From: an uncultured Solirubrobacterales bacterium
GTDB taxonomy: Bacteria > Actinomycetota > Thermoleophilia > Solirubrobacterales > Solirubrobacteraceae
Assembly: GCA_963743725.1 (NCBI GenBank)
Contig: CAVURH010000008.1
Span: 924-64,923, forward strand
DNA: 64,000 nt
Direction: 5' to 3'
Shown here: piece after piece, positions 23,456 to 61,589 of the stretch
How the letters are laid out: each line of letters begins with the position of its first letter
How positions within the stretch are numbered: position 1 is the first letter of the stretch
Made by a program: the position numbers and the translations under genes
The notes under the pieces: generated by a model
Told to the model about the DNA's origin: nothing
Database searches by the model: none
What the model saw: only the letters and a program-made list of their open reading frames with translations

Positions 23456-23528
23456 GGCCGCGCCGAGGCCGATCACCGGGCCGTCGCGGTCACACACCCC
23501 CGATCCCAGGCCCGTTGACAATCCCGCG

Positions 23529-41894: not shown

Positions 41895-44250
41895 TTATTC
41901 GCGGGCGATCATGGCGGCGGCCTCGCGCTCGAGGTCGACGTAGGGCTCGCCGCTGACGTCGACGGCGCCAAAGTGGATTGTGCCGCCGGTGAACGGCCAG
42001 GGCCGCTGGCCGGGGTAGTCGTAGGTGATCGCGTGGAGGCTACGCCCGACGGTCAGCCCGGATCCGGTCAGGCCGAAGGTCGCGGGCTGGGTCTTGATTT
42101 GCCCCTCGCCGACCTTGTCCTCGCCGTAGTAGAGCGACAGAGTCCCCGTGCAGACACCCGGCTTGCCCTCGCTGTCCTTGACGAACTCGGCCGACAGGAG
42201 CAGGTTATCGCCGACCGGCACGTCCTCGGTCGCGTCGATTTTCTGCTCGAGCATGCCGACGAAGTTGTAGACGTAGTGCAGCCGGTTGTCCTTGACGTAG
42301 AGCGTGTGCCCGCCGAAGTGCGAGCCGTGCGCGAACAGCACCCCCTGTGCCCCCGGCGCCGGGATGTCGACCCACATTCCGATGATGTAGTCGCGGTTGC
42401 GGACATTGACGGCTAGTGCCTCCGGGACCTCGGCTACGCCGGGGAAGTAGCGGTAGCGGTCGCGCGGGCTGGTGATCTGGGGACGCGGGGTGGTGATGAT
42501 CTCGACCGGCGAGCGGTCATCGAGCGGGAATGCCCCGTTGGCGCCTGCTTCGGAGAACCACAGGTTGATCAGCTCGCGCAGCTTCTCGGGGTGCTCTGCC
42601 GCGAGGTCGTGGAGCTCGGCGCGGTCGGTCTCGACGTTGTAGAGCTCCCATGTGTCTTCGTTGAAGTGGCTCCAGCCGGCGACCGTGGGGTGGGTGGTTA
42701 CGGCTTTCCATCCCTCGTGCCAGATCGCCCGCGAGCCGAGCATCGAGTAGAACTGCGTCGATCGCGCGTTTGGGATCGAGGCGTCGTTGAAGCTGTACCG
42801 CATGCTGATCCCGTCGAAGCTGCTCTGCACGTGCCCCTTGATCGTCTCCGGCGGCTCGACCCCGAGGCAGTCGAGGACGGTCGGCACGATGTCGATCGCG
42901 TGGTGGTACTGGTGGCGGATCTCGCCCTTGGCCTCGATCTCCTTCGGCCAGGAGATGATGCACGGATCGCAGCTGCCGCCGTTGTACTCGTAGCGCTTCC
43001 ACATCTTGAACGGCGTGTTGAACGCCATCGCCCAGCCGTTGGGGTAGTGGTTGTAGGTCTTCTCGCTCCCGAGCTCGTCGATCATCGCCAGGTTCGTCTC
43101 GATGTCATCGGGAATCTGGTTGATGAACTTGTTCTCGTTCAGCGATCCGTTCGGCCCACCCTCGCCGCTGGCCCCATTGTCCGAGACCACCACGATGATC
43201 GTGTTCTCGAGCTGCTCGGTCTCCTCCAGATACGCGAGCAGGCGACCGATCTGCCAGTCAGCGTGGGCGAGGAACCCCGCGTAGACCTCGGCCATGCGAC
43301 AGAACAGCCTGCGCTCGTCGTCGGACAGCGAACCCCACGGGCGCGTGAAGTCAAGCTGTGGGAACGGCTCGTCCGCCCGGGCCCTTGCGATCCTGTGGGG
43401 TCCCGATCGGGTTGAGCGCCGGGAGCTCCGTGTCCTCGGGGACGATCCCGAGCTTCTTCTGGCGCTCGAGCGTCTGCTCGCGCATCGCCTCATAGCCGAT
43501 GTCGAACCGGCCCTTGTACTTCTCGATCCACTCTCTGGGTACCTGGTGGGGGGCGTGGCACGCGCCCGGCGTGTAGTAGAGGAAGAACGGCTTGTCCGGG
43601 GCCACCGCCTTCGCGTCCATGATGAACTCGAGCGCCCTGTCAGTCAGATCCACCGTCAAGTGGTAGCCGTCCTCGGGCTGGGAGGGCTGGTCGACCGGAT
43701 GGTTGTCATAGACCAGGTCCGGATGCCACTGGTCGGTCTCCGCGCCGAGGAAACCGTAGAAGCGCTCGAACCCTCGCCCTGTCGGCCAGTTGCGCCGGGT
43801 CGAGGCGAGATGCATCTCGTCGGTCGGGCACAGATGCCACTTCCCGGTCATGTACGTGTTCCAGCCGAGCTCGCCGAGGATCTCCGGGAGCATCCCGTTC
43901 TCCGGCGGGATCGTGCCGCTCGCGTTCGGGAACCCGATCGCGGCCTCGGTGATGCACGCCATGCTGTTGCGCGTGTGATTACGACCCGTCAGCAGGCACG
44001 AACGTGTCGGCGAACACAGCGCCGTGGTGTGCCACTGCGTATATCGGACCCCGCTGGCGGCGATCCGGTCGATGTTCGGCGTCTCCACCGGGCCGCCGTA
44101 ACAGCCGACCGCCGCGAAACCAACGTCATCGAGCACGATATACACCACATTCGGCGCTCCGTCCGGAGCCCTCGGCGGCTCGAACGGCGCCCAATCAGGA
44201 ACCGAGTCGCGAATATCGACGTTGACGACTCCCTTGAATGGCTTGCCCAT
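41895..44250 (-). pseudogene. Arylsulfatase (formylglycine-dependent, AtsA-like), +1 frameshift near 43374
   Basis: The N-terminal part has NVVYIVLDDVGF and CSPTRSCLLTGRN (CxPxR), ending ..IGTPQDRKGPG. It continues as DEPFPQLDFTRPWGSLSDDERRLFCRMAEVYAGFLAHAD.. in ORF 41895..43493. Length is 2356 nt, which is 3n+1. Confidence 0.85.
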
Positions 44251-44356
44251 GAACGGCCTCGATTCGTCTGCGCGTCTACCCGAGAGATGTGACCCCTTCA
44301 CACTCCCGGGTCACCGGTGGCCGAGCATCATCCAGATCGGGTGATCTCTCCAAGCA

Positions 44357-45541
44357 TCATCTCCACGTGATCAGGTCGGCCTCGCCCCCAAGCGCGATCG
44401 GACTCTCGCAGCGGGGCCACCCCCGGGCGATCCGGCTCTCGATCTCGGGCCACGACGGGATCCCGCTGGTCGGGTCGATCGCCTCGACGCTGCATGCACC
44501 GACGGCGGTTGCGGCCGTCGCCGCCTCGGCCAGCCCCGCGCCGCGCAGCAGCGCGGCCAGGAACCCGGCGACCGTGGCGTCGCCAGATCCGGTGGTGCCG
44601 ACCACGGCCCGAGGCGTGAAGCAGGGGGCGAGCACTTCCTGCCCGATCCAGTCACGAGTCCTCAGCCCAAGCCGGTCGCAGTACCGGCTGATTCGCGACG
44701 AGTCGGACGAGGCCCGCACGTACAGTCCGTGATCGCCGAGCTTGATCATCGCCACGGCGCTGCCCATCGAGATGATCGACTGGCTGAGCGCACGCAGTTG
44801 CACGACGTCGACGGACGCGAGACCTCGCTCCAAGAACTGCCCGTGCGCCGTGCGGTCGAGCATGTAGAGAAGCTCCTCGATGCTCGGGCAGAAGAGGTCG
44901 ACGGATGGTAGGCAGTTGGCGAGGATCTCCCTCCAGTCCACCTGCCCGGCGTCGCTGTCCGGATCGAGGGCGCACATGTCCAGCGATGTCGCGGGGCCGC
45001 TCTCGCGCACGCGCGCGAGCATCTCCAGCAGCTCGCGCCCACCGTCGGCGTACATCCGTGGCATCAGCGGCGGATAGCCGAAGTGAAACACGCGCGTATC
45101 GCCCAACCGTTCATAGGGCACATCCCCGGCGCCGAAGGTCTCGTTCACGCCCGGGCAATGGAGAAAGCTGCGATCGACCCCAGGTGGACTGACGACGATC
45201 GTGTAGCTCGTGGCCTGCCCGATGGCCACCCCGATGTCGTCGGCGAGGCCCGCCTGCGCGAGTGATCGCCGCACCGACTCGCCGAACAGGTCGTCGCCGA
45301 CCTTGCCGACGAGCTGTACATCGATCCCCAGCCTGTGAAGTGCGAGCCCGGTGTTGGTGACGACCCCTCCGGTCGAGAGAGCAGCCGGACCGACCGTCAC
45401 CAACCGGCCGGGCTCGAGACGCACCGGCCCGTATAGGTGCGGAAAGAGATCGAGCGACACATGGCCCGCGACGACTGCCTTGGACAAGTTGCGAGGACGA
45501 TAACGGTCCGTGATCGCTAGCCTGCGATCTGGTCTCGGCAT
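44357..45541 (-). CDS. PfkB-family carbohydrate kinase
   Basis: VVAGHVSLDL..GGVVTNTGLAL..GTTGSGDATVAGFLAALL. The start is ATG 45541, or alternatively TTG 45487. Confidence 0.8.
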   Translation of the reverse strand: MPRPDRRLAITDRYRPRNLSKAVVAGHVSLDLFPHLYGPVRLEPGRLVTVGPAALSTGGVVTNTGLALHRLGIDVQLVGKVGDDLFGESVRRSLAQAGLADDIGVAIGQATSYTIVVSPPGVDRSFLHCPGVNETFGAGDVPYERLGDTRVFHFGYPPLMPRMYADGGRELLEMLARVRESGPATSLDMCALDPDSDAGQVDWREILANCLPSVDLFCPSIEELLYMLDRTAHGQFLERGLASVDVVQLRALSQSIISMGSAVAMIKLGDHGLYVRASSDSSRISRYCDRLGLRTRDWIGQEVLAPCFTPRAVVGTTGSGDATVAGFLAALLRGAGLAEAATAATAVGACSVEAIDPTSGIPSWPEIESRIARGWPRCESPIALGGEADLITWR

Positions 45542-46520
45542 GAAGTCTCTGGACGCCAAGCTCGACAGCCTCCACGCCGATCCCGTAAACGCGCGCGACT
45601 TCATCCTCGCCGACGCGAAGGACGCGGACATGGCATTCGGTCTCGCTGCCACCGGCATGGACCATGGGACGGGGCGCCCGAGGTCGATGGCTGAGTTCCG
45701 AGACCGGATGCGGGAGGTCGTGCAGCAGGGTCTGGTCGACATCATGCTGATGAGCGTGAGCAACTGCGAGGTGCTTTCGGGCGACGAGGGCCTGTTCGAG
45801 GACTCACCCATCACGCCGGCCGTCCGCGCGAACGACACCACCGACATCCATGTGCTTCACGGCGCGTCGTATCAGCATCAGCCCTCTCAGCTCCTGCGTA
45901 CCCCCCGAATCGACGAGCTCGCAGCGCATGCGAATCTGGCGCTGTACTCACTGACGCCGCTGGGCGATGCCGAGCGTGACGCTCGTGCGTTGGAGGCATA
46001 CCGTGAGTTCCGCCGGGAAGCCGAGGATGTCGGCGTCCGCCACCTTCTGGAGGTGTTCGCCCCGAACGTGCCCGGCGCCGTCGCGCCCGAGGATCGCGGC
46101 CGATTTCTTTCGGACTTCGTTGTGAGAGCGCTGGCCGGTGTCCCCCGCGCCGGCCGGCCGATCCTCCTGAAGATGCCGTACCTGGGCCCGGACTCGCTGG
46201 AGGCACTCGCAGCCTACGACCCCCATTTGATTCCGGGCATTCTCGGTGGGTCCGCCGGCACCACGTTTGACGCGTTCTTTCTGCTCGAGCAGGCCCGCCG
46301 ACACGGCGCTCGCGCGGCGCTCTTCGGCCGCAAGATAAACCGCAGCGAAGACCAGCTGACGTTCGTGCGCTATCTCCGGCTCATCGCCGACGGCGAGATT
46401 GAGGCGGCCGAGGCATGCCGGGCGTACCACGCGGACCTCGCGCGGCTGGGCTGCAGGCCGCACCGCTCGCTGGAGGACGACCTTCAGCTCACAGAGCCCG
46501 CGTTGGCGGGGACGACCTGA
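45540..46520 (+). CDS. Aldolase-like (beta/alpha)8 TIM-barrel protein
   Basis: 327 aa. DFILADAKDADM, HLLEVF, ILLKMPY and GILGGSAGTTFDAF..ALFGRKIN suggest a class-I-aldolase/DUF2090-like barrel (family assignment from memory). It is divergent from the kinase. Confidence 0.5.
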   Translation: MKSLDAKLDSLHADPVNARDFILADAKDADMAFGLAATGMDHGTGRPRSMAEFRDRMREVVQQGLVDIMLMSVSNCEVLSGDEGLFEDSPITPAVRANDTTDIHVLHGASYQHQPSQLLRTPRIDELAAHANLALYSLTPLGDAERDARALEAYREFRREAEDVGVRHLLEVFAPNVPGAVAPEDRGRFLSDFVVRALAGVPRAGRPILLKMPYLGPDSLEALAAYDPHLIPGILGGSAGTTFDAFFLLEQARRHGARAALFGRKINRSEDQLTFVRYLRLIADGEIEAAEACRAYHADLARLGCRPHRSLEDDLQLTEPALAGTT

Positions 46521-46576
46521 CGTCCGAGCCGGCGCGTCGTTAGGGTTGCGACGGAGATACCGATCGTGGAGGGAAC

Positions 46577-46847
46577 ATGGCCGTTTGTCTTGTGATCAAC
46601 ATTCCTGGAGGAACGCTCGAGCAGTACGACCAGGTCCGCGGCGCCATCGAGCCCCTCGGCGACGGGCAGATCTCGCACGTGGCAGGCGCCACCGCTGATG
46701 GGTTCTGCGTGGTCGACGTCTGGGAGTCGAGGGCGGACTTCGATCGGTTCATGGGGGAGCATCTCGGTGAGCAGCTCGCCCGCGCCGGCAGTCCCGCAAC
46801 CCCAGATCGTCGAGTTCGAGGTCCACGCCTCCGAGCAACGCGCCTGA
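46577..46847 (+). pseudogene. ABM/Dabb-like small protein, +1 frameshift near 46797-46800
   Basis: MAVCLVINIPGGTLEQYDQV..FCVVDVWESRADFDRFMGEHLGEQLARAGSP then continues as PQIVEFEVHASEQRA* in the next frame. Length is 271 nt, which is 3n+1. Confidence 0.5.
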
Positions 46848-46873
46848 TCCGGCGCTTCGCGCGGGGTACCCGC

Positions 46874-48292
46874 CTAACGCCTTAGCGCCCGCAGCTCGAT
46901 CGGCAGTCCGTCCCCCGGGAACGTGCCGGTCCCGTAATCGAGGATCGGCTCGTAGCCGGCGGGGACGCTCCACGAGTTGCGCAGCAGGAGCTGGTGCATG
47001 ATCGCCTTGACCTCCATCGAGCCGAAGTGCATGCCGATGCACTTGTGCACTCCGCCGCCAAACGGCGTCCAGGCGTACTTGTGCGCGGCATCCTCGCGCC
47101 GCTCGTCGCTGAACCGCTCGGGATCGAACGTGTCGGGGTTCTGCCACCAGGGCTCCATCCGCTGGGTGGCGTACACGCCGACCATCACGCGGCTGCCGGC
47201 GGGGATGTAGCGGCCGTCGATCTCCGTGTCCTTGATCGCGCGTCGGGCGACGGTGCCGACGGGTGCGTTCATGCGCAGCGTCTCCTTGAACACGAGGTCG
47301 ATCGAGGGCAGCGAGTCGAGGTCGTCATATCCGATCGCGTCCTTGCCCAGCGCCCGCGACTCCTCGCGCAGCCGCTCCTGCCACTCGGGGTGGCGGGCGA
47401 GGTAGTAGCCCATCATCGTCACCGTGATCGTGCTCGTGTCGTGCGCGGCCATCATCGTGAAGATCATGTGGTTGACGACGTCCTCGTCGCTGAACCGCTC
47501 GCCCTCCTCGGTCTCGGCCCGGCAGAGGACGCTGAAGAGGTCGTCCTCCCGACTCGCACGCTTGGCCGCGAGCTGACTGCGGAAGTACTGCTCGAGGCGG
47601 CGGCGGCTCTCGAGCCCGCGGTGCCATTTGCCGCCGGGCACGTCCGCACGGATGATCGCCTGCCCACCGACCACCACGTCGATGAAGGCGGCGTTGAGAC
47701 GATCCGTCTCGGCGTTCGCCTCGGCGCCCATGAACACCTCGGTGGCGATGTCGAGCGTCAGCTGCTTGGCCGCCGGATAGAGCTGGAAGCCGCTACCCGG
47801 GCGCCAGCGCGAGAGGCCCTGCGTGATCGCCGGGTTCATCTTGTCGAGGTAGGCGACCAGCCGGTCATGCTTGAACGCCTGCTGCATGATCCGCCGGTGG
47901 TGACGGTGCTCCTCGAAGTCCATCAGCATCACGCCGCGGTCGAAGAAGGCCCCGATCAGGGGATCCCATCCGAGCTTGTTCGAGAACGCCCGATCGCGGT
48001 TGACCAGGATGGTCTCGAGCCCGTCGGGCCCGAGCACGTTGACCCAGCGACCTCCGAGCGCGTTGACCCAGAACACCGTCCCCAGCCGCTGGTGGTAGTC
48101 GCGCGCGTGGCGCAGGCCGTCGTGGAGGAAGTCGAGCGTGTGCCCGACGACCGGCACGCCGGAATCTCCCATCACCGGCTTCAACCCGCTGCCCGCAGGC
48201 GGCACCGCGAGCGGCCGGACGGGAGAGGCAGGGGCACGCTCGATGAGCGAAGCGGCGACGCCGCGCGCCTTCAGCTTGACCGGTGTGCCCAT
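46874..48292 (-). CDS. Cytochrome P450
   Basis: 472 aa from the ATG at 48292, with AGGAG 5 nt upstream. Heme loop FGGGVHKCIGMHFG. ETLR (EXXR). AAHDTST I-helix. Confidence 0.9.
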   Translation of the reverse strand: MGTPVKLKARGVAASLIERAPASPVRPLAVPPAGSGLKPVMGDSGVPVVGHTLDFLHDGLRHARDYHQRLGTVFWVNALGGRWVNVLGPDGLETILVNRDRAFSNKLGWDPLIGAFFDRGVMLMDFEEHRHHRRIMQQAFKHDRLVAYLDKMNPAITQGLSRWRPGSGFQLYPAAKQLTLDIATEVFMGAEANAETDRLNAAFIDVVVGGQAIIRADVPGGKWHRGLESRRRLEQYFRSQLAAKRASREDDLFSVLCRAETEEGERFSDEDVVNHMIFTMMAAHDTSTITVTMMGYYLARHPEWQERLREESRALGKDAIGYDDLDSLPSIDLVFKETLRMNAPVGTVARRAIKDTEIDGRYIPAGSRVMVGVYATQRMEPWWQNPDTFDPERFSDERREDAAHKYAWTPFGGGVHKCIGMHFGSMEVKAIMHQLLLRNSWSVPAGYEPILDYGTGTFPGDGLPIELRALRR

Positions 48293-48424
48293 GGATCTCC
48301 TCGGATCGGCAGTTCTCGCCGTTGCCGGCGACCGCACCTGCGCGCACCGGGGATCGTAATGCCCCGCGACGCCGGCGACCGGGTCACGCCGCCTCAGACG
48401 TAATTCTCACGCTCTTCTCCCGGC

Positions 48425-48477
48425 CTCCTTACGGCCCTCGAGCAATGTGGCTGCTCCCCTCAAGCAACCGTAAGGAG
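48425..48477 (+). promoter_or_regulatory. Shine-Dalgarno-sequestering hairpin in the 5' leader of the PepSY gene
   Basis: ctccttacgg (48425-34) is the perfect reverse complement of ccgtaaggag (48468-77). The latter contains the AAGGAG that lies 4 nt before the ATG at 48482. Confidence 0.4.
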
Positions 48478-48481
48478 AGTC

Positions 48482-48914
48482 ATGAGGAACATGAGATCGA
48501 TGCTGATAACGGGCGCGGCGGTCGGAGCGGCCGCGGTCGGCGGCGCGGCGATCGCCAGCGCCGCAAGCTCCACAACGACGACGTCGAGCTCCAGGATGCC
48601 GTCCGCACCGCAAGGTGCGCCGGCGTTCCCCGCCCACGGGACGGCCGCGCACGAGGACGCGGAGAAGGCGGTCACCGGCGCGGCGGCTGCCAAGGCCCGC
48701 GCGGCGGCGGTCAAGCTCGCCGGTGGCGGCACCGCCGGTGCGGTCACGACCGACTACACCGGCAACGGGTACGAGGTGACCGTCACCAAGTCCGGCGGCG
48801 GCACGGTCGAGGTTCACCTCGACAGCTCGTTCAACGCCCTGAAGCGCCCAGGCGGTCCGGGCGGTCCGGGCGGTCCCGGCGGCCCCGGGCGGTCCCGGCG
48901 GGTACGCCGGCTGA
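48482..48914 (+). pseudogene. Secreted PepSY-domain protein with (GGP)n tail, +1 frameshift near 48887
   Basis: Signal peptide. AEKAVTGAAAAKARAAAVKLAGGGTAGAVTTDYTGNGYEVTVTKSGGGTVEVHLD. The fifth 9-nt repeat unit carries an extra G. The corrected frame ends GPGGYAG* at 48912-14 instead of running into the next gene. Confidence 0.55.
48851..48896. repeat. Tandem 9-nt coding repeat (ggcggtccg) x5
   Basis: ggcggtccg ggcggtccg ggcggtccc ggcggcccc g-ggcggtccc. This encodes GGPGGPGGP. Confidence 0.8.
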
Positions 48915-48981
48915 GAGCGCTGGTGGCGTGGGCGGCGGGGCGGCCGCCCACGCCTCACCCCCTGGTTAGGATCCGGCCAGG

Positions 48982-49566
48982 ATGGGCGTCCGTCTCGCCG
49001 AGCTCGATGATCACGCGGAGCTGACTCACGTTCTCGCCCGGGCGTTCGACGATGACCCGATCCAGCGGTGGGTCTTCCCCAGCCCACGGGTGCGCGCCCG
49101 GTACGGCGATCAGTTCTTTCGCTGGTCGCTCTGGCGGTGCGCGGACCAGCACGTGAGCTGGACGACCGACGACCTGGCCGGCGCCGCGCTGTGGATGCTG
49201 CCCGACCGCTGGCAGGTGACGATCCCGCAGCTCGCGCGGCTGGCCAGATGGGCCGGCCTCGGCGTCCGGTGGCGGGCGCCCCTGGTCGCGTGGGGACTGA
49301 CCGCGGTCGAGCGTCATCATCCGGGCGACCGGCATCTGTATCTCGCGGTGCTCGGCGTCGATCCGGCTCGGCAGGGGGCCGGCCTCGGTTCGGCACTGCT
49401 GGCGCCCGGACTCGAGCTGTGCGATCGCGACGGAATCGCGGCCTACCTCGAGACGGGGAAGGAGCGCAACCTCGCCTTCTACTCACGGCACGGATTCCAG
49501 GTCACGCACGACCTCCGCCTCCCGGCCGGACCGCCCGTGTGGCTGATGCGCCGCGAGCCGCGCTGA
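48982..49566 (+). CDS. GNAT-family N-acetyltransferase
   Basis: 194 aa. LAVLGVDPARQGAGLGSALL..AYLETGKERNLAFYSRHGF. Confidence 0.85.
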   Translation: MGVRLAELDDHAELTHVLARAFDDDPIQRWVFPSPRVRARYGDQFFRWSLWRCADQHVSWTTDDLAGAALWMLPDRWQVTIPQLARLARWAGLGVRWRAPLVAWGLTAVERHHPGDRHLYLAVLGVDPARQGAGLGSALLAPGLELCDRDGIAAYLETGKERNLAFYSRHGFQVTHDLRLPAGPPVWLMRREPR

Positions 49567-49592
49567 CGCGGCCCGCCTGGCCGCGGTCGCCG

Positions 49593-50606
49593 CTAGCCCT
49601 CTTCCCTCAGACTCCCGATCCGCAGCGACCCGTCGGAGCCCGGGTCCGCCTCCTCGCCCGCCGAGTCGGCGGCACCGGGATCGGGCGGGTCGTCGAGGAA
49701 GCCGGCGCTCGGGACGAAGAACAGACTGCCGGTGACGGCGGTGGAGAAGTCGAGGATCCGGTCGTGGTTTCCGGGCGGCTTGCCGATGAACATGTTCCGC
49801 AGCATCTCCTCGATCACGTCCGGAGTGCGCGCATAGCCGATGAAGTACGTCCCGAACTCGCCCCTGCCGATGTTTCCGAACGGCATGTTGAGGCGGAGGA
49901 TCTGTCGCTCCTCGCCGTTCTCGTCCTCGATCACGTTCAGCGCGACGTGCGAGTTGGTGGGCTTGGCATCGTCAGCGAGCTCGATGTCGCTCAGCTTCGT
50001 GCGGCCGATCGCCAGCTCCTGTTCCTCCACCGTCAACGCGTCCCAGGCCTCGAGGTCGTGCAGGTACTTCTGCACGATCACGTAGCTGCCGCCGGCGAAG
50101 GCCGGGTCCTCGTCTCCGATCACGACGGCGTCGGCCGCCTCTGCGCCCTCCGGATTCTCGGTCCCGTCGACGAATCCGAGCAGGTCGCGCTCGTCGAAGG
50201 ACCGGAACCCGTGCACCTCATCCACCACGCGCGCGAACGCGCCAAGCCGGTCCATCAGCCGCTGGGCGAGCTCAAAGCAGAGATCGAGGCGGTGGGCGCG
50301 GATGTGGAAGAGCAGGTCGCCCGCCGTCGCCACCGCCCTGTGTCGGTCGCCCGCCAGCTCGATGAACGGGTGCAGCTCGGCCGGGCGCGGCGTCCCGAAC
50401 GTGCGGTCCCACAGCTCGGGCCCTATCCCGACAATGCAGCTCAGCTCGCCCTCGGGGATGCGAAAGCCGACCGACCGCCGCAGCGCGCTGGCATCGGCGA
50501 GCACGTCGCGGACGGCGTCCTCGGCTCCGGCGTCGACCGTGAGCACGAGAAAGATCGCCGACTCCGTGAGTGGGCTGAGCACGGATTGCGGGTCTGATCC
50601 TTCCAC
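49593..50606 (-). CDS. DyP-type peroxidase with C-terminal encapsulin cargo-loading peptide
   Basis: 337 aa. GFVDGTENP (GxxDG) and proximal-His region PTNSHVAL. C-terminus ..PGSDGSLRIGSLREEG. GTG start with GGAAGGTGGA upstream. Confidence 0.9.
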   Translation of the reverse strand: MEGSDPQSVLSPLTESAIFLVLTVDAGAEDAVRDVLADASALRRSVGFRIPEGELSCIVGIGPELWDRTFGTPRPAELHPFIELAGDRHRAVATAGDLLFHIRAHRLDLCFELAQRLMDRLGAFARVVDEVHGFRSFDERDLLGFVDGTENPEGAEAADAVVIGDEDPAFAGGSYVIVQKYLHDLEAWDALTVEEQELAIGRTKLSDIELADDAKPTNSHVALNVIEDENGEERQILRLNMPFGNIGRGEFGTYFIGYARTPDVIEEMLRNMFIGKPPGNHDRILDFSTAVTGSLFFVPSAGFLDDPPDPGAADSAGEEADPGSDGSLRIGSLREEG

Positions 50607-50666
50607 GGCGTTCCACCTTCCACTCGCGGTCGGTGAAGCCTACTCAGGCCCCCGCCGCCGGCGGTC

Positions 50667-51716
50667 TCAGAACACGAGCAGCATCAGGCCAACCGTCACC
50701 CCGGGACCGACCGTGACCATCAGCCCGCGTTCGCCTCGCGGCGGCCGCCGCCGCGAGATCGTCTCGCTGAGCACGTAGAAGATCGACGGCGTCCCCACGT
50801 TCCCGCGTGTCGCGAGCACGTCGTAGCTCACCTGGACCTCCTCGGGCGTCAGCTCGAGCGCGACCCGGACCCGATCGAGGATCCGGGGGCCGCCGGGGTG
50901 GATGATCCAGTGGTCGATCTCCCCGCGCAGAAGCCCGACCGACTCGAGAAACTCGTCGACCAGCTCGGGAAGCCCGCACGCCGCGACCTCGGGCAGATCC
51001 CGGTCCAGATGCAGGTAGCTGTCCTCGTCGCTCAGCTCCATCCGGACGGCTCCGAGAGTGCCCTCGATCTGGTGCACCTTCGACGCCGCGACGGCGGGCC
51101 CGCTCGTCCCGCGCTCGATCACGGCGGCCGCGCAGCCGTCGCCGAAGATCGCCGAGCCGACCGTCTTGGCGCGGTGGTCGCCGGGGGCGGCTCGCATCAG
51201 CAGCCCGCTCATGCTCTCGGCGGCGACGATCAGCCCCTTGCGGCCGGGATGAGCGTCGAGCGAGCCGGTCACTAGCCGCACGAGCGGCACCGCGCTTGCG
51301 CACCCGACCCCGACCACGTGGTACTTGTCGGTCGACGGATCCATTCCGAACACCTCCACGAGCCGGTGCGCGAGGGTCGGCCCCCCGAGGGAGTAGAGGC
51401 TCGAGGTCACGACCGTGCCGATCTCGGCCGGCGCCACATCGAGGCGCCGGACCGCGCCGACCGCGGCTTCGAACAGCTGCTCCTCGGTCCACGCCGTCCG
51501 GCCCTGGAGGGTCTGCGCGACCGTGCCCGGGCAGAGCCCCAGGCTGCGGCTGTCGACCGCGGCGCGGCCGAAGACCCCCTCGGCGAAGGAGTCTCCCTCG
51601 AGCCCGAGCGCTGAGAGCACCTCGCGTTGGGACATCATCGCCGTGGGCTCGACGACGGCGAGCCCACTGATCCTCGGCAGGTCGCTCAAGCTGCCTGCTG
51701 CCGGCCGGCCTGCCAT
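50667..51716 (-). CDS. Type III polyketide synthase (chalcone/stilbene synthase superfamily)
   Basis: 349 aa from the ATG at 51716. Catalytic Cys in VVGVGCASAV, His in WIIHPGGPRIL, Asn in TRGNVGTPSIFYVL. Confidence 0.9.
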   Translation of the reverse strand: MAGRPAAGSLSDLPRISGLAVVEPTAMMSQREVLSALGLEGDSFAEGVFGRAAVDSRSLGLCPGTVAQTLQGRTAWTEEQLFEAAVGAVRRLDVAPAEIGTVVTSSLYSLGGPTLAHRLVEVFGMDPSTDKYHVVGVGCASAVPLVRLVTGSLDAHPGRKGLIVAAESMSGLLMRAAPGDHRAKTVGSAIFGDGCAAAVIERGTSGPAVAASKVHQIEGTLGAVRMELSDEDSYLHLDRDLPEVAACGLPELVDEFLESVGLLRGEIDHWIIHPGGPRILDRVRVALELTPEEVQVSYDVLATRGNVGTPSIFYVLSETISRRRPPRGERGLMVTVGPGVTVGLMLLVF

Positions 51717-52387
51717 GAGCCGAGCGTCGTGATCGCGCCGCCGATTACGCGGTCGAGGAACGTGGCTCGATCGTTGGCGTGGGGGAGCGGCTCGGACGGG
51801 ACCGGCACACCGAGAAACTCGCACAGCGGCTCCCAGCCCTCCGACACCTCCCACACGAGCAGCCGCTCCGCCGGGACGACTTGCTTGACCTCCTCGTTGT
51901 GGGCCACGAACGCCTCCATCAGCGCCTCCGGCGAATGCCCGGCCGGGAACGTGCCCTGGTCGCTCCAGAACATCCGGTCGACGAATTCGAGGTAGCGCCG
52001 CCAGGAGGGATCGACATGGGCCCGAGCACTCGACAGCAGGCGGATCAGCGACTCGCCGTGGCACATGTCGACGATCGTCTCGCGGAAGCTCGGCTCCCAG
52101 CGCTCCGGATCGCGCACGCTCAGCAGCACCTTCGCATTCGGGAACGCGTCCACCAGGTCGCGGTAGAAGAACCCGCCCGGCCAGTCGACCGTGGAGCGCC
52201 AGCCCTCGAGGATCGAGCCCGGCTCGACACGTCCCTCCAGGGCCCCCTCCCACAGCGGGACCTGTGAGTCAAGGCCGGCCAGGACGTCGACCCAGTGGTA
52301 GCACGGCGCGAGCCCGAGCATCTCGAACGCCACCTTCTGCGTCAGCGTGCCGGTTCGCGGCAGCCCGGCTCCGATCAGCTCGACCAC
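51686..52387 (-). CDS. PAPS-dependent sulfotransferase (Sulfotransfer_4-like)
   Basis: 233 aa from the GTG at 52387. GAGLPRTGTLT (5'-phosphosulfate loop) and KVLLSVRDPERWEPSF. Its 3' end overlaps the T3PKS start by 31 nt. Confidence 0.75.
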   Translation of the reverse strand: MVELIGAGLPRTGTLTQKVAFEMLGLAPCYHWVDVLAGLDSQVPLWEGALEGRVEPGSILEGWRSTVDWPGGFFYRDLVDAFPNAKVLLSVRDPERWEPSFRETIVDMCHGESLIRLLSSARAHVDPSWRRYLEFVDRMFWSDQGTFPAGHSPEALMEAFVAHNEEVKQVVPAERLLVWEVSEGWEPLCEFLGVPVPSEPLPHANDRATFLDRVIGGAITTLGSWQAGRQQAA

Positions 52388-53190
52388 TATGCAGCCGCTC
52401 CGGTGGCCAGCGTCGACATCGGGCGCAGGCTCGCGGTCCCGTCGAGCATCAGCCGGCCGATCTGCTCCAGCTGTCCGCCGATTCGCAGCGAAGGTCCGAC
52501 GACGCCGATCGCGGCGCGTGGCCGGCCGGCGTCGAATATGACCGGCACCGCCACGCCGGAGACGCCGTCGAGGTACTCCTCCTCGGCGACGGCAAAGCCG
52601 TCTCGTCGCGCCGCCGCCAGGTCGCTGGCCATCTGCGCCCGATCGTGAGTCTTCTGGGTCAGCGCCGGGAGCGGCAGCCGCCCGAGCATGCTCTCGGCCT
52701 CGGCCGGCGAGAGTCCGATGAGCAGCGCCTTGCCCAGGGCGCCGGGCGGGATCGTCAGGCGCTGGCCGGCCATCGGGATCACGGACAGGGTCTGGGGGCT
52801 GATCCGCGTGCTCACGATCGTCAGCTCGAGCGTCTCCCAGTCGACCGCCGCGAGCATTACCGATTCCCCCGTGGTCGCCGCCAGCTCGTCGAGGATCGTG
52901 GAGCATGCGGTAACGACGTCGAGGTCGGCGCGGGCCAGGGCGCCGAGCTCGCTCAGCTTCAAGCCGAGCGAGTAGCGGCCGTCCTCTCCGTGCCGCATGA
53001 ACCCGAGCGCGACCAGCGAGCCGGCGAGCCGGTGCACGGTGGCCTTCGGCAGGCCGACCCGGTCCGCGAGATCACCCAGACCGAGCCGCGGCTCGGCGGC
53101 CGTGAAGGCCGAGAGCACGGCGCACGTACGCTCGACCGTCCGCGTCGTGTGCGCGCCGCCTGTCTCGACAGATGAAACGCGTTTCACCAA
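52387..53190 (-). CDS. IclR-family transcriptional regulator
   Basis: 267 aa. wHTH LGLGDLADRVGLPKATVHRLAGSLVALGF. C-terminal effector domain. The stop TAG shares one base with the next GTG (TAGTG). Confidence 0.9.
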   Translation of the reverse strand: MVKRVSSVETGGAHTTRTVERTCAVLSAFTAAEPRLGLGDLADRVGLPKATVHRLAGSLVALGFMRHGEDGRYSLGLKLSELGALARADLDVVTACSTILDELAATTGESVMLAAVDWETLELTIVSTRISPQTLSVIPMAGQRLTIPPGALGKALLIGLSPAEAESMLGRLPLPALTQKTHDRAQMASDLAAARRDGFAVAEEEYLDGVSGVAVPVIFDAGRPRAAIGVVGPSLRIGGQLEQIGRLMLDGTASLRPMSTLATGAAA

Positions 53191-53272
53191 TTGAAATATA
53201 CGCGCTGCGGCGGCGGTGGGCCGTAGTAGCCTTCCGCGCGCCGGGAGTCGGCATCATTGGACCGGAGGGCGC

Positions 53273-53890
53273 ATGTTCGGAACTCATCAGCTGCTCGAGC
53301 ACAGGCTCCGCAAGAGCGGAAAGTCGGCGCTCGCGAACGTGACCGCGTGCGAACGCAAGGAGACGATGCAGCAGAACGTCAACGCGGGCGTCGGCACGCC
53401 CAAGACCCTGTGCTACCTGGAGCTGCAGGTACAGCCGGAGGGCGAGCCGGGCTTCGAGGCCAAGACGGACGCTTGGCTGGTGGGCACGGAGGGCGCGCAT
53501 GTCGGAATGACCGTCCCGGTGCTCTACGACCCGTCAGATCACGGCAAGGTCGTGGTCGACAGCTCGGACGAGGCCTGGCGGCCGGCCGACAACGAGAACA
53601 CCTTCGCGAGGATCGCCGCCAGGGCGGCCGAGCGGGGCGAGGACCCGTCGCGGACGGCGGCGATGATGGAGATGAGGCGCGCGGCCCTCAGCGACCCGGA
53701 GGGATTCCGCAAGACGATGCGCGACCAGGGGCCCGCGGCGTTCGGCCTGCCCGGGCCACCGCAGACGTCCGCTCCGCCCCCGTCGCAGGATCCGCTCGAT
53801 CGGCTCTCGAAGCTGGCCGACCTTCACGAGCGCGGCGCCCTGACCGACGCCGAGTTCGAGGCGGAGAAGAAGAAGCTGCTCGGCAGCTAG
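53273..53890 (+). CDS. SHOCT-domain protein
   Basis: 205 aa from MFGTHQ. C-terminal DRLSKLADLHERGALTDAEFEAEKKKLL. Confidence 0.7.
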   Translation: MFGTHQLLEHRLRKSGKSALANVTACERKETMQQNVNAGVGTPKTLCYLELQVQPEGEPGFEAKTDAWLVGTEGAHVGMTVPVLYDPSDHGKVVVDSSDEAWRPADNENTFARIAARAAERGEDPSRTAAMMEMRRAALSDPEGFRKTMRDQGPAAFGLPGPPQTSAPPPSQDPLDRLSKLADLHERGALTDAEFEAEKKKLLGS

Positions 53891-54627
53891 CTGCCGTCGA
53901 GCGACGCGAGCGTTATCTCGAGCACCCGGTCCCAGTAGCGGCTGCCGTGCTCGGCGCTGGCGGCTGTTGGGTCGCCGATCACGCCGTTGTCGGCCAGCGA
54001 GTGGACCCCGCCGGTGAAGAGCCCGCCGACCGCCGTCTCGAGATCGCCCGTATAGCCTGGCTCGCCTCGCTCGAGGTGGACGAGCTCGGGATGGATCGCC
54101 GCGAGCATCGACGTCTCCCACTCCCCCGCGTGCAGGCCGCCCTGCTCCAACGGCACGTCGTACTGATCGGCGCCGAGCTGCGCAATCGCGAGCAGCGCCC
54201 CGAGGTCGATGAGCGCGCTGACCTCGATTCCCGGCGCATCGTCCAGCGCCTCGATCGCCTCCGCGAGCGGCCGGAAGTTCCCGCCGTGCGTCGGCAGCAG
54301 CACCACCCGGCGAAAGCCGCCGCGGGCGAGTGAGCGCACGACATCGGCGACGATCGCGTGGAAGGTCGGCTCAGACACCGACAGCGTCCCCGGGAACTCG
54401 AGGTGGTGCTCGGAGCAGCCGATCCTCACCGTCGGCGCCACGAACGCATCCAGCCGCTCGGCCACGAGCCGCGCCAGATGGTCTCCGATCAGCGCGTCCG
54501 TTGCGAGCGGCATGTGAGGTCCGTGCTGCTCAGTCGCGCCGAACGCGATCACGACCGTGTCCCGCCCGGCCTGTAGCTCCGCCCTCACCTCGGGCCAGGA
54601 CAGGCGGTCGAGCTCGAGCGCTCCCAT
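53887..54627 (-). CDS. Creatininase-family amidohydrolase
   Basis: 246 aa. VVIAFGATEQHGPHMPLATD, LLPTHGGN, HAGEWETS. Confidence 0.85.
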   Translation of the reverse strand: MGALELDRLSWPEVRAELQAGRDTVVIAFGATEQHGPHMPLATDALIGDHLARLVAERLDAFVAPTVRIGCSEHHLEFPGTLSVSEPTFHAIVADVVRSLARGGFRRVVLLPTHGGNFRPLAEAIEALDDAPGIEVSALIDLGALLAIAQLGADQYDVPLEQGGLHAGEWETSMLAAIHPELVHLERGEPGYTGDLETAVGGLFTGGVHSLADNGVIGDPTAASAEHGSRYWDRVLEITLASLDGS

Positions 54628-54636
54628 CCCGTCCGT

Positions 54637-55083
54637 TCAGCTCGCCTCAACCGCGGCCTTGATCCGCTCCGCGAGCGCGGGCGCGTCCTTGACCGCGGCC
54701 TTGGACGCGAATCCCACGATCAGCTTCCCGAACCCGTGGCCCTCGAACTGGTTGTGGATCGTCACCTTGGTCTGACCGTTGCCGACGTCCTCCAGGTCGT
54801 AGCCGCCGTCCGGGACCGTGACCGCGTTCTTCGAGCGCTCGGCCCAGCGGATCTTCGTCGGCGCCACGAGCTCCGTCAGCTCGAACTTCCGGCTGCTCTT
54901 CATACCGGCGTCCTTGACCGTGCTCTCGAACACTGTGCCGACTCCCACCGGCCCGTCGGTCGTCTTTCTGATCTCCTGGACGCGCGGGCTGAACTTGGGG
55001 TCGTTGGTCCCGTCAGCCAGGAACGCGAACACCTCGTTGATTGGGCGGTCGACCACCGCCGACCCCGTGAAACCATGTGCCAT
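54637..55083 (-). CDS. SRPBCC family protein
   Basis: 148 aa. VVDRPINEVFAFLADGTNDPKFSPRV. Confidence 0.8.
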   Translation of the reverse strand: MAHGFTGSAVVDRPINEVFAFLADGTNDPKFSPRVQEIRKTTDGPVGVGTVFESTVKDAGMKSSRKFELTELVAPTKIRWAERSKNAVTVPDGGYDLEDVGNGQTKVTIHNQFEGHGFGKLIVGFASKAAVKDAPALAERIKAAVEAS

Positions 55084-55285
55084 CCGGCCGTACTCCTTCC
55101 TCGACGACGTACCCCGGAGACCCTATACCGGGTGCCAAGCGGCCGACTCATATTTTCCGGCCTCGGTGCCGATAAACAAGCACCGAATCGTTGGCGGTCG
55201 CCCAGGCTGGAAGGGCCGCTGCGGCGGGTGAGCGTCGGCGCCTCACCGTCCGCCATCCGATCGGATCGGCCGTATCGTTGCCGGC

Positions 55286-56044
55286 ATGCTCGATCCCGAG
55301 AACGGGGCGCGGCGAACCGCTCGCGCGGTCAGGCGGATGGTGTCCTCGCCGCGGCGCGTGTGGGAGCGCGCGCTGCCCGGCGAGCTCGAGTTCTGGCGCC
55401 GCTACATCGAGACCCGGGGTCTCGACTTCCCGGACGAGTTCGACGCCCAGCTCGACCCGCAGGCGCCGATCCGGGACGAATTCCTGCTCGCCGCCGTCGA
55501 CCTCGTCGGCGGCCCGCTGGTCCGGATCCTCGACGTCGGCGCCGGCCCGCTCAGCGCAGTCGGACAGCGGGACCCCAGAGACCCGGATCGGCGCGTCGAG
55601 CTCGTCGCCGTTGACCCGCTCGGCGACGAGTACGCAAAGCTGCTGCTTGAGGCCGGTATCTCGCCGCCGGTCCTCACGCGCGCGTGTAGCGGCGAGGACC
55701 TGGTCGACGCTCTCGGTCGCGGCAGCTTCGACATCGCCTACGCCCGCAACTCGGTCGACCACGGGGTCGACGCGCCCGCGATCGTCGAGAACATGCTCGA
55801 CTGCGTTCGCGTCGGCGGCGCGGTCGTGCTCCACCACTACCGCCGCGAGGCGGAGAACATGCGCTACGAGGAGCTACATCAGTGGAACTTCGACGTACGC
55901 GACGAACGGCTGGTGCTGTTCGACCGCCGTCACAGCCACGACCTGACCGAGCGCTTCGCCGGCCGCGCCGAGACCACCGCGGTGATCCACGCGGGCGCGC
56001 ACCACGCGTCCTGGGTGGCCGCGACGATCGTGCGGCGGCGATGA
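55286..56044 (+). CDS. Class I SAM-dependent methyltransferase
   Basis: 252 aa. Motif I RILDVGAGP. FDIAYARNSVDH. VRVGGAVVL. Confidence 0.7.
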   Translation: MLDPENGARRTARAVRRMVSSPRRVWERALPGELEFWRRYIETRGLDFPDEFDAQLDPQAPIRDEFLLAAVDLVGGPLVRILDVGAGPLSAVGQRDPRDPDRRVELVAVDPLGDEYAKLLLEAGISPPVLTRACSGEDLVDALGRGSFDIAYARNSVDHGVDAPAIVENMLDCVRVGGAVVLHHYRREAENMRYEELHQWNFDVRDERLVLFDRRHSHDLTERFAGRAETTAVIHAGAHHASWVAATIVRRR

Positions 56045-56061
56045 GCCGCGCTCGCCGGCCG

Positions 56062-56624
56062 TCAGCACTTGTTGTTGTAACAGGCGAGCTGTATGTAGCG
56101 AAGCCGAGTCGCGGACGGTCCGACGCCGAACGAGGAGAAATGGGTGACGTTCAGCCCGCCGGGGCCGGTGCTGAACAGGTCGAAGCCGTTTACCCCGGTG
56201 GAGGTGTTCGCCTTGGCCGCCGGATAGGCGCGCTTGACCGCGGCCTTCTGCGACCCGAGATGGATGTTCTTGGCCGTCTTCCACTTCGACAGCGTGCCCG
56301 GCTTAAATTTCTCGCTCGTGCCGTTGTCGTTGCCGCGCTGATGGAGACCTCGATCACACCGCCCCCGGCGAAGCTGACCACCGCGCGTTCGGCATGGCCG
56401 GCCGAGCCGGGCCCGGTCCAGGTGCAGAAGCCCGCCATGCAGCCGGTCCTGCCCCAGAGGTGAAACACCTGCGCCTGCGTCATCCCGAGCTTGATCCCGG
56501 CGATCGACTTCCCCGGCACGATCAGCGTCCTCTTCGGGTGCGGGAGCCTGGCCGAACCGACCGCCGGCCATAGCGTCGCTCCGACCGCCATGACGCCGAC
56601 GGCAACCGCCGCTCTGCGAAGCAT
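56062..56624 (-). pseudogene. Secreted hypothetical protein, frameshift near 56338-56345
   Basis: GAGGAGG lies before the ATG at 56624. Signal peptide MLRRAAVAVGVMAVGATLWPAVGSA. ..GGGVIEVSIS continues as RGNDNGTSEKFKPGTLSKWKT..YIQLACYNNKC* in the ORF 56062..56571 frame. Length is 563 nt, which is 3n+2. Confidence 0.55.
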
Positions 56625-56728
56625 TGAGACCTCCTCTTCCCGGTTCCGGCGCCTCGGCCCCGCCAAAGCGCCGCTGCCGGTCAATCGTATGCCAGCGGCG
56701 GCCTCCTTACCAGCGATGATCTGCGGGA

Positions 56729-57847: not shown

Positions 57848-58075
57848 GCTAAGCGGTCGCACCCGAGAACTAAGGGGAAAGTCGGCCCGGATGCCCGATG
57901 GCAGGCGACCGGCTTACGCCTACGGTTCTACTCATGAACACGCACCTGACCAACATGCTCGCTCAGCAGCGAAGCGCCGAGATGATGCAGGCCGCCGAGC
58001 GCTCGAGGCTCGCCGCCGGCACAGATGAACGGCAACGGCCTCGGTTCCCGCGTCCGCGCTGGCTACAGTCAGACC

Positions 58076-59164: not shown

Positions 59165-59232
59165 GCTCGCCAACACTACCCACGGTTCGGCTCCGGTCGG
59201 CGGGCCGCTGAAAAGCGCGTTAATCTCGTACC

Positions 59233-60423: not shown

Positions 60424-60429
60424 GCGCCG

Positions 60430-60891: not shown

Positions 60892-60910
60892 CCGGGTCTA
60901 TGATCGAACC

Positions 60911-61477: not shown

Positions 61478-61589
61478 TCCGCGTCAGGACTCCAGTCGAT
61501 CGCCGAGCGCCCCGCTCGCATGGCCGACGCGGTGCAGGAAAGGAACGTTGCGCGCGCCGCTGACGATCGGTTACAGTCGTCCCGGGGCT

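What the first reader, a model, noticed from the sequence alone, without database searches (positions are those of the whole stretch)
49596..49640. DyP carries an encapsulin cargo-loading peptide but no shell gene is adjacent
The last 14 residues, SDGSLRIGSLREEG, match the well-known DyP cargo-loading consensus (..GSLxIGSLK/R..) used to dock into family 1 encapsulin nanocompartments. In characterised loci (Brevibacterium, Rhodococcus, Mycobacterium) the encapsulin gene lies immediately downstream of the dyp gene. Here the downstream neighbour is a convergent GNAT gene (48982..49566). I found no HK97-fold encapsulin-like ORF anywhere in the 64 kb. There are three possibilities: the shell is encoded elsewhere and recruits cargo in trans, the shell was lost and the tail is vestigial, or the tail has another partner. 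Embedding such a cargo behind a type III PKS is unusual.
Basis: partly seen in the sequence, partly recalled or inferred. Interest (0 to 1): 0.7.

Follow-up and report, generated by a model that had tools for sequence, protein, structure and literature searches.

The report
Peroxidase with shell-docking tail, no shell nearby
A dye-decolorizing peroxidase gene carries an intact, selectively maintained docking peptide for an encapsulin protein shell. No shell gene lies within 64 kb, which fits the already described "secondary cargo" arrangement and turns out to be common in related soil actinobacteria, so it is a good example rather than a new kind of system.

Summary
Window 49593-50606 (-) encodes a complete B-type DyP (337 aa). 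After a Pro/Ala/Asp-rich linker it ends in SDGSLRIGSLREEG, the family 1 encapsulin targeting peptide (TP). A family 1 shell HMM finds nothing in the six-frame window, and the TP motif occurs only once there.

Lack of an adjacent shell is not unusual. Of 80 related DyP loci from species-representative genomes, about 30 keep the tail with no shell within 10 kb, 33 have tail plus adjacent shell, and 14 have neither. The orphan tails are as conserved as the operonic ones, while the linker is free to vary.

Five of six sampled shells from the same clade sit behind an encapsulated-ferritin gene that ends in the same peptide (EDGSLGIGSLRG). These shells are about 80% identical to DyP-operon shells.

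Best reading: this DyP is a secondary cargo loaded in trans into a shell encoded elsewhere, a category defined by Giessen and Silver. The shell of this particular genome could not be looked for.

The position of the DyP behind a sulfotransferase/type III PKS pair is real. It is shared only with one 95% ortholog, so it is lineage-specific.

The parts
49593..50606 (-). DyP-type (B-class) haem peroxidase gene, 337 aa, GTG start, TAG stop
   Evidence: Pfam Dyp_perox_N and Dyp_perox_C; TIGR01413. Best solved relative is 7bok, with the GFVDGTENP, NSHVAL and ILRLNMPFG catalytic-motif stretches conserved in the alignment. The 95% ortholog in L001 has the same start.
49596..49637 (-). C-terminal targeting peptide SDGSLRIGSLREEG (residues 324-337); core motif is SLxIGSLR
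   Evidence: All 120 closest database homologs keep an SLxIGSL[KR]-type tail. It is the only match to the motif in the six-frame window. Against L001 there are 4 synonymous and 2 non-synonymous codon changes, the latter only at the variable x position and at the last residue.
49638..49703 (-). Pro/Ala/Asp/Gly-rich flexible linker (residues 302-323) between the folded domain and the targeting peptide
   Evidence: The Pfam domain ends at residue 301. The linker is unconserved among homologs, with column entropy of about 2.8-3.1 bits, against 0 bits at the S, L, G and L positions of the motif.
50612..50621 (-). Shine-Dalgarno-like GGAAGGTGGA, 5-6 nt upstream of the DyP GTG start, inside the 60-nt gap after the PKS stop
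   Evidence: Read directly from the sequence. The intergenic stretch is conserved in L001. No terminator-like site was found in 48800-53500.
50667..51716 (-). Type III polyketide synthase (349 aa; an alternative TTG start at 51689 gives 340 aa), immediately upstream of the DyP
   Evidence: Pfam Chal_sti_synt_C/N and FAE1_CUT1_RppA. Closest solved relatives are M. tuberculosis Pks11 and Pks18. Start set by comparison with L001.
51686..52387 (-). Sulfotransfer_4-family sulfotransferase (233 aa); its 3' end overlaps the PKS start by 4-31 nt, depending on which PKS start is used
   Evidence: Pfam PF17784, E 1e-56. Boundaries. It is paired with the PKS in about 30 of 37 metagenome loci.
52387..53190 (-). 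IclR-family regulator; its TAG stop shares one base with the sulfotransferase GTG start (TAGTG)
   Evidence: Pfam HTH_IclR and IclR_C. Junction read. Same arrangement in L001.
48982..49566 (+). Convergent GNAT acetyltransferase occupying the position where a shell gene sits in canonical operons
   Evidence: Pfam Acetyltransf_1/7. No encapsulin remnant lies between or around the genes. DNA homology to L001 breaks right after the DyP stop codon.

Best explanation
The gene encodes an active-looking B-type DyP peroxidase. Its C-terminal peptide (DGSLRIGSLR on a flexible linker) is a working family 1 encapsulin targeting peptide.

The shell gene is not in this locus. It most likely lies elsewhere in the genome, probably in an encapsulated-ferritin (EncFtn)-shell operon, or possibly in a second DyP-shell operon. 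On this reading the DyP hexamer is loaded in trans as 'secondary cargo' when the shell assembles, by the tail docking into the conserved pocket on the shell's inner face.

The DyP is probably transcribed with the upstream iclR-sulfotransferase-type III PKS genes. That juxtaposition is recent and specific to this lineage.

Shown here: the identity of the enzyme and its tail, the absence of a shell in 64 kb, the frequency and tail conservation of unlinked DyPs in relatives, and the existence of closely related shells whose own cargo carries the same peptide.

Inferred: that this genome has such a shell, and that the DyP is actually packaged.
For: (1) The tail matches the experimentally defined peptide. 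It aligns with the M. smegmatis encapsulated DyP tail and with the published core consensus DGSLGTIGSLKGE.

(2) Among 80 species-representative genomes plus the window, L001 and L002 there are 33 tail-bearing DyPs without a shell within 10 kb, 33 with an adjacent shell, and 14 with neither tail nor shell. In the unlinked set S, L, G and L are invariant and I is 32/33, the same as in operonic DyPs, while the linker is unconstrained. One deep clade of 12 DyPs is entirely unlinked and still keeps GSLRIGSLR. Tails do disappear where no shell is adjacent (the 14 tail-less loci). Retention therefore implies selection.

(3) In the comparison of the window with its 95% ortholog, the tail has 4 synonymous changes and amino-acid changes only at the variable x position and the last residue.

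(4) No encapsulin pseudogene remnant lies next to any unlinked DyP, and the unlinked loci share no alternative conserved neighbour.

(5) Five of six sampled shells from the same clade sit behind an EncFtn-like gene ending EDGSLGIGS[LM]RG. These shells are 79-83% identical to DyP-operon shells, nearly as close as they are to each other.

(6) Published precedent exists: secondary cargo, including DyPs, encoded away from the core operon; BfrB encoded outside the operon in M. tuberculosis; and FLP-type family 1 systems listed for two Solirubrobacterales MAGs.
Against: No shell gene was seen for this organism. Only 64 kb of a 117-kb metagenomic contig is available, and the source contig is not retrievable.

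I could not show for any single relative that an unlinked DyP and a shell occur in the same genome. Matching contig lengths between DyP hits and shell hits found nothing, and the WGS prefixes of the sampled shells did not match any orphan-DyP genome.

Tail conservation between the window and L001 rests on few substitutions. A few unlinked tails look eroded (for example SLGIGNLDG and SLGIGSGRE), so some lineages may be losing the system.
Confidence: 0.65

Rival explanations
1. The shell was lost and the tail is vestigial. The lineage recently lost its encapsulin gene, and the targeting peptide persists only because too little time has passed for it to decay. The DyP then works as a free cytosolic peroxidase.
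For: There is no shell in 64 kb. Tail-less, shell-less DyPs are interspersed in the tree (14 loci, for example L014 close to the window's branch), which shows that loss does happen. Some unlinked tails look degraded.
Against: Unlinked tails are as conserved as operonic ones across 65-80% identical proteins, including a deep clade that is entirely unlinked, while the adjoining linker has randomised. Changes in the tail between the window and L001 are synonymous at every constrained position. No shell pseudogene remnant lies at any unlinked locus. Shells with a different core cargo but the same peptide are common in the clade.
Confidence: 0.2
2. The DyP is a functional member of the polyketide operon. 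It was recruited behind the sulfotransferase/type III PKS pair to oxidise or couple the phenolic polyketide product, with or without encapsulation.
For: The same-strand run iclR-sulfotransferase-PKS-DyP is tight: a 1-nt overlap, a 4-31-nt overlap, then a 60-nt gap with a Shine-Dalgarno sequence and no terminator. It is conserved in L001. DyPs oxidise phenolic compounds. Type III PKS plus sulfotransferase cassettes make sulfated resorcinols or pyrones. A P450, an SRPBCC cyclase-like gene, a methyltransferase-like gene and a LanC-like gene lie nearby.
Against: None of the 37 related PKS loci has a DyP, including the 78% PKS ortholog L084, where a convergent gene encoding a likely secreted protein follows the PKS. 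None of the 80 related DyP loci has a PKS. Synteny at 95% identity is expected from descent alone. Adjacency is therefore the only evidence.
Confidence: 0.12
3. The tail binds a partner other than a family 1 shell, for example another compartment or a membrane or secretion factor.
For: The only support is the absence of a shell in the window.
Against: No alternative neighbour is conserved across the 33 unlinked loci. The peptide is indistinguishable from tails of DyPs and EncFtns that sit directly next to family 1 shells.
Confidence: 0.03

Closest known systems
DyP-encapsulin core operons (M. smegmatis / M. tuberculosis DyP-Enc, Rhodococcus jostii DypB-Enc, Brevibacterium linens)
   Same: The same B-type DyP family: E 1.5e-136 to 7bok and 1e-120 to DypB 3qnr. 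The same linker-plus-DGSLxIGSL[KR] C-terminal peptide. Relatives at 75% identity (L003/L005) have the canonical arrangement, with the shell gene overlapping the DyP stop.
   Different: No shell gene is adjacent here or anywhere in the 64 kb. A convergent GNAT gene occupies that position, and the upstream neighbours are a type III PKS and a sulfotransferase.
'Secondary cargo' of family 1 encapsulins (Giessen & Silver 2016/2017): TP-bearing proteins encoded away from the core operon, e.g. the Peroxi secondary cargo in Pseudonocardia dioxanivorans CB1190, and BfrB/FolB in mycobacteria
   Same: A cargo-type protein with a terminal targeting peptide, encoded at a locus without a shell. A Pseudonocardia isolate in my set (L025) shows the same pattern of a tail-bearing DyP with no adjacent shell.
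   Different: In the published cases the shell was identified in the same genome; here it could not be looked for. The high frequency of unlinked DyPs found here in this mostly Solirubrobacterales set (about half of tail-bearing DyPs) did not turn up in the papers I read.
EncFtn (encapsulated ferritin)-encapsulin systems
   Same: In the same clade these are the commonest context of the sampled shells. The EncFtn ends in EDGSLGIGS[LM]RG, the same peptide as the window DyP.
   Different: No EncFtn or shell is present in the window. Co-loading of EncFtn and DyP is an inference.
Type III PKS + PAPS-dependent sulfotransferase cassettes (adp sulfated adipostatins; cpz, tot clusters)
   Same: An adjacent type III PKS and sulfotransferase. 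The pairing is conserved down to 50% PKS identity in about 30 of 37 loci.
   Different: The sulfotransferase here belongs to Pfam Sulfotransfer_4, and its relation to AdpST or Cpz8 was not tested. No dedicated PAPS genes were noted. None of those clusters is reported with a DyP.

Membership tests
Family 1 encapsulin cargo protein | Terminal targeting peptide matching the family 1 consensus (..DGSLxIGSLK/R..) within about 15 residues of the C-terminus | tested here: met
   SDGSLRIGSLREEG forms the last 14 residues. It aligns with the 7bok tail and matches the published consensus DGSLGTIGSLKGE.
Family 1 encapsulin cargo protein | Flexible, poorly conserved linker between the folded domain and the peptide | tested here: met
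   The Pfam domain ends at residue 301. Residues 302-323 are Pro/Ala/Asp/Gly-rich, and the linker column entropy among relatives is about 3 bits.
Family 1 encapsulin cargo protein | Belongs to a protein family with experimentally packaged members | tested here: met
   Top solved relatives are DyPs solved inside or with encapsulins (7bok, 9bkx, 8u4z, DypB).
Family 1 encapsulin cargo protein | A family 1 shell gene (PF04454 / NF041155) in the same genome | not testable with these tools
   None is present in the 64-kb window.
Family 1 encapsulin cargo protein | Physical encapsulation / peptide-dependent loading | not testable with these tools
   This needs co-purification or heterologous co-expression.
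Core cargo of a DyP-encapsulin operon | Shell gene immediately adjacent (usually downstream, often overlapping) | tested here: not met
   The downstream neighbour is a convergent GNAT 26 bp away, and no remnant of a shell gene is detectable. For contrast, see L003/L005.
Secondary (trans-encoded) encapsulin cargo | Targeting peptide kept under selection although no shell gene is adjacent | tested here: met
   33 unlinked relatives keep S-L-x-I-G-S-L-[RK] as strictly as 33 operonic ones. Window versus L001: 4 synonymous and 2 non-synonymous changes, the latter only at unconstrained positions.
DyP-type peroxidase, class B | Dyp_perox N and C domains with the GXXDG Asp, the proximal His and the distal Arg | tested here: met
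   Both Pfam domains are full length. GFVDGTENP, NSHVAL and ILRLNMPFG are conserved against 7bok. Assigning the catalytic residues to these motifs rests on general knowledge of DyPs.
Sulfated-polyketide cassette (type III PKS + sulfotransferase) | DyP is a conserved member of the cassette | tested here: not met
   0 of 37 related PKS loci carry a DyP, while about 30 of them carry the sulfotransferase. L084 (78% PKS identity) has a convergent gene encoding a likely secreted protein instead.

The most novel reading that the evidence does not exclude
The DyP was captured by a sulfotransferase/type III PKS operon because the encapsulated peroxidase acts on that operon's phenolic polyketide, for example by oxidative coupling or detoxification of a sulfated alkylresorcinol or pyrone inside or at the nanocompartment. 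If so, this would be a natural genetic link between an encapsulin cargo DyP and a defined small-molecule pathway, and a candidate physiological substrate for encapsulated DyPs, whose biological role is still described as speculative.
Probability: 0.1. Interest if true: 0.7.

Novelty: new member of a known kind. Interest (0 to 1): 0.3.

Why it matters
This finding does not reveal a new mechanism. It is a clean instance of trans-encoded (secondary) encapsulin cargo.

The comparative survey adds two modest points. First, in this mostly Solirubrobacterales set of soil actinobacteria, about half of all tail-bearing DyPs are unlinked from any shell gene, yet they keep the peptide under selection. 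Second, the sampled shells of that clade mostly sit with an encapsulated ferritin that carries the same peptide. Together these suggest that mixed ferritin/peroxidase loading of one shell may be widespread. They also suggest that operon-based surveys may undercount DyP cargo.

The type III PKS/sulfotransferase neighbourhood offers a testable, though weakly supported, lead to a natural DyP substrate.

Tried and rejected
(1) Retrieving the source contig by exact protein look-up failed; nothing was on record.

(2) I looked for a shell on the same contig as an unlinked DyP by matching the 'longest contig' lengths of shell hits against those of DyP hits and loci. The only shared values came from known or probably adjacent DyP-shell pairs (1211513 = L009; 24519; 7190), and none matched a contig carrying an unlinked DyP.

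(3) I compared the WGS/assembly prefixes of the sampled shells (CAVWOC, DASZHF, several ERZ accessions) with those of the genomes holding unlinked DyPs. None matched.

(4) A weak tblastn hit downstream of the DyP in L002 (E 0.21, roughly colinear) suggested a shell pseudogene. The shell HMM found nothing there or at any other unlinked locus at E <= 0.05, apart from one weak match of 8 bits in L050, about 5 kb from the DyP. I rejected the idea.

(5) I searched for an alternative conserved neighbour of unlinked DyPs by clustering ORFs within 6 kb. No cluster occurs in more than 6 of the 32 loci.

(6) The 681-aa gene next to the DyP in L001 is a repeat-rich protein with an N-terminal hydrophobic, signal-like segment. 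It is absent from the window and from all other loci, so it is not a shell candidate.

(7) The promoter/terminator scan of 48800-53500 found nothing either way.

(8) I did not use the third large protein search. I estimated below 5-20% chance that it would link a shell to an unlinked-DyP genome.

Full report
**What is there**

The ORF at 49593..50606 on the minus strand encodes a 337-aa protein ending ...DPPDPGAADSAGEEADPGSDGSLRIGSLREEG. Pfam finds full-length Dyp_perox_N (residues 7-135) and Dyp_perox_C (138-301), and NCBIfam finds TIGR01413.

The closest solved structures are encapsulin-associated B-type DyPs: M. smegmatis 7bok (E 1.5e-136), 9bkx, 8u4z and Rhodococcus DypB. The stretches GFVDGTENP, NSHVAL and ILRLNMPFG are conserved, and the tail aligns DGSLRIGSLR to DGSLGIGSLK. 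That these stretches carry the catalytic Asp, His and Arg rests on general knowledge of DyPs.

The protein therefore has three parts:
- a folded peroxidase, residues 1-301;
- a 22-residue Pro/Ala/Asp/Gly linker;
- a 14-residue tail that matches the published family 1 targeting-peptide consensus DGSLGTIGSLKGE.

The motif occurs once in the six-frame translation of all 64 kb, at this C-terminus.

**No shell in the window**

- tblastn with the shell of a related DyP operon (L003 11011-11808) gives nothing better than E 0.5.
- An HMM built from 35 actinobacterial family 1 shells gives a best E of 0.38 (6 bits), against 410 bits on a positive control.
- Pfam scans of about 50 ORFs show ordinary metabolic, transport and regulatory genes, with no Linocin_M18 or capsid family.
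- The downstream neighbour is a convergent GNAT gene whose stop lies 26 bp from the DyP stop.

**How unusual is it?**

All 120 closest database homologs (71-100% identity) carry an SLxIGSL[KR]-type tail behind a variable linker.

A scan of one genome per species returned 80 loci, mostly Solirubrobacterales and other actinobacterial MAGs. None is closer than 75% identity, so the source species is not represented.

I classified these loci, together with the window and two metagenomic relatives (L001, L002), by tail and by a shell within 10 kb:

| Class | Loci |
|---|---|
| Tail, no shell within 10 kb | 33 (30 from the species scan, plus the window, L001 and L002) |
| Tail, adjacent shell | 33 |
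| No tail, no shell | 14 |
| Degenerate tail, adjacent shell | 3 |

One or two of the unlinked loci are cut too close to the contig end to be informative. A tail-bearing DyP without an adjacent shell is therefore about as common as the textbook operon in this part of the tree.

**Is the orphan tail functional?**

- In the unlinked set S, L, G and L of the motif are invariant, I is 32/33, and R/K is 31/33. This is the same as in the operonic set. The 20 residues upstream have about 2.8-3.1 bits of column entropy in both sets.
- In a neighbour-joining tree, unlinked, operonic and tail-less DyPs are interspersed. One deep clade of 12 is entirely unlinked and still reads GSLRIGSLR.
- Tail-less DyPs end shortly after the domain (...FLDDLPP), which shows that the extension is dispensable and can be lost.
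- Between the window and its 95% ortholog L001, the 14 tail codons show 4 synonymous changes. Amino-acid changes occur only at the variable x position (R329Q) and the last residue.
- No unlinked locus holds a shell pseudogene remnant.
- The unlinked loci share no other conserved neighbour.

Together these points argue for continued selection on the peptide, and hence for a binding partner encoded elsewhere.

**A plausible partner**

A profile search with 18 clade-specific shells returned thousands of hits. I looked at the context of six hits on long contigs.

- Five sit directly behind an EncFtn-like gene (L121, L122, L126, L127, L129). One sits behind a DyP (L123).
- The EncFtn proteins end EDGSLGIGSMRGNS, EDGSLGIGSLRGASR and similar. 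This is the same peptide as the window DyP.
- Their shells are 79-83% identical to DyP-operon shells, nearly as close as they are to one another (81-87% for most pairs).
- The published census also lists FLP-type family 1 systems for two Solirubrobacterales MAGs.

A shell whose own operon encodes a ferritin would thus be expected to accept this DyP.

**What is already known**

Giessen and Silver defined 'secondary cargo' as targeting-peptide proteins encoded outside the core operon. They found 76 such proteins with the core consensus, including 8 peroxidases, for example in Pseudonocardia dioxanivorans, where the core cargo is a hemerythrin. BfrB encoded outside the operon is a proposed cargo in M. 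tuberculosis. The finding fits this category, and the mechanism is not new.

**The polyketide neighbourhood**

On the minus strand the genes run iclR (52387-53190), Sulfotransfer_4 sulfotransferase (51686-52387), type III PKS (50667-51716), then the DyP.

- The iclR stop shares one base with the sulfotransferase start (TAGTG).
- The sulfotransferase overlaps the PKS by 4-31 nt, depending on which PKS start is used.
- A 60-nt gap with a GGAAGGTGGA ribosome-binding site precedes the DyP GTG.
- No terminator-like site was found.

Co-transcription is therefore plausible, and the 95% ortholog L001 has the same order.

A metagenome scan with the PKS returned 37 loci at 50-80% identity. About 30 of them keep the sulfotransferase next to the PKS, in three different gene orders, and none has a DyP. 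In L084 (78% PKS identity) a convergent gene encoding a likely secreted protein follows the PKS. Conversely, none of the 80 DyP loci has a PKS.

The conserved unit is thus sulfotransferase plus PKS, comparable to the adp, cpz and tot cassettes that make sulfated phenolic polyketides. The DyP joined it only in this lineage. DNA homology between the window and L001 ends immediately after the DyP stop codon, where L001 carries an extra 2-kb gene, so this end of the locus is rearrangement-prone. A functional link between the DyP and the polyketide is possible but rests on adjacency alone.

**Limits**

- The source contig (117 kb) could not be retrieved.
- I could not demonstrate, for any one genome, that an unlinked DyP and a distant shell co-occur.
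- The preferred explanation is therefore an inference from comparative conservation and from the clade's shell repertoire. It was not observed directly.

**Verdict**

| Explanation | Confidence |
|---|---|
| Trans-loaded secondary cargo of a family 1 encapsulin encoded elsewhere | about 0.65 |
| Recent shell loss with a not-yet-decayed tail | about 0.2 |
| Another binding partner | about 0.03 |

A functional tie to the polyketide operon (about 0.1) is not exclusive of the others.

Novelty: a new member of a known kind. Interest is modest. The points most worth following up are the high frequency of unlinked tail-bearing DyPs and the shared peptide with EncFtn in Solirubrobacterales.

Noticed in passing
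window 41895-43493 (-) and 43351-44301 (-): A sulfatase is split into two overlapping ORFs, with the Pfam Sulfatase N-part in the upstream ORF and the C-part plus SGSH_C in the downstream one. This is a frameshift, pseudogene or assembly indel. It lies about 8 kb from the sulfotransferase/PKS genes.
   Followed up: no
window 3731-4696 (-) and 4677-5252 (-): An FAD_binding_3 monooxygenase is likewise split into two ORFs covering the N- and C-terminal halves of the profile. This second apparent frameshift hints at indel errors in the assembly, or at gene decay.
   Followed up: no
window 50667-52387 (-); loci L084-L120: The pairing of Sulfotransfer_4 sulfotransferase with type III PKS is conserved in about 30 of 37 metagenome loci, down to 50% PKS identity. 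It occurs in three gene orders: upstream on the same strand, divergent, and downstream. This is probably a widespread, uncharacterised sulfated-polyketide cassette in soil actinobacteria.
   Followed up: partly
L001 11026-13071 (-): The 95% ortholog carries an extra 681-aa, repeat-rich protein with an N-terminal hydrophobic, signal-like segment between the DyP and the GNAT. It is absent from the window. DNA homology between the two breaks immediately after the DyP stop codon.
   Followed up: partly
L121 4612-5801, L122 4612-5801, L126 3612-4801, L127 3612-4801, L129 3612-4801: These are EncFtn-like + family 1 shell operons in Solirubrobacterales-type MAGs. The EncFtn C-termini (EDGSLGIGS[LM]RG..) are nearly identical to DyP tails, and the shells are 79-83% identical to DyP-operon shells. 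Cargo type therefore seems to switch without shell divergence.
   Followed up: partly
L019 7635-9450, L038 9189-11068, L045 9185-11008: In three genomes the shell gene lies directly upstream of the DyP, the reverse of the usual DyP-then-shell order.
   Followed up: no
window 45510-46520 (+): A 336-aa ORF, conserved in L001 as a 326-aa called gene, has no Pfam or NCBIfam hit. It lies beside a PfkB-family kinase, and its function is unknown.
   Followed up: no
window about 6000-23500 versus 46000-61500: Third-codon-position GC of the called genes is lower in the first region (about 0.78-0.85) than around the DyP locus (about 0.90-0.92). This may reflect a different origin or expression class.
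   Followed up: no
window 54637-57847: An SRPBCC (Polyketide_cyc2) protein, a weak methyltransferase-like ORF and a LanC-like protein lie within 7 kb upstream of the iclR-sulfotransferase-PKS-DyP run. With the P450 at 46874-48337, the region could be a small biosynthetic cluster.
   Followed up: no
window 7572-9290 (+): A 572-aa ORF has only a weak glycine-rich ALK_LTK_GRD match. It sits in a 2.9-kb stretch where my GC3-based gene caller found no confident gene.
   Followed up: no
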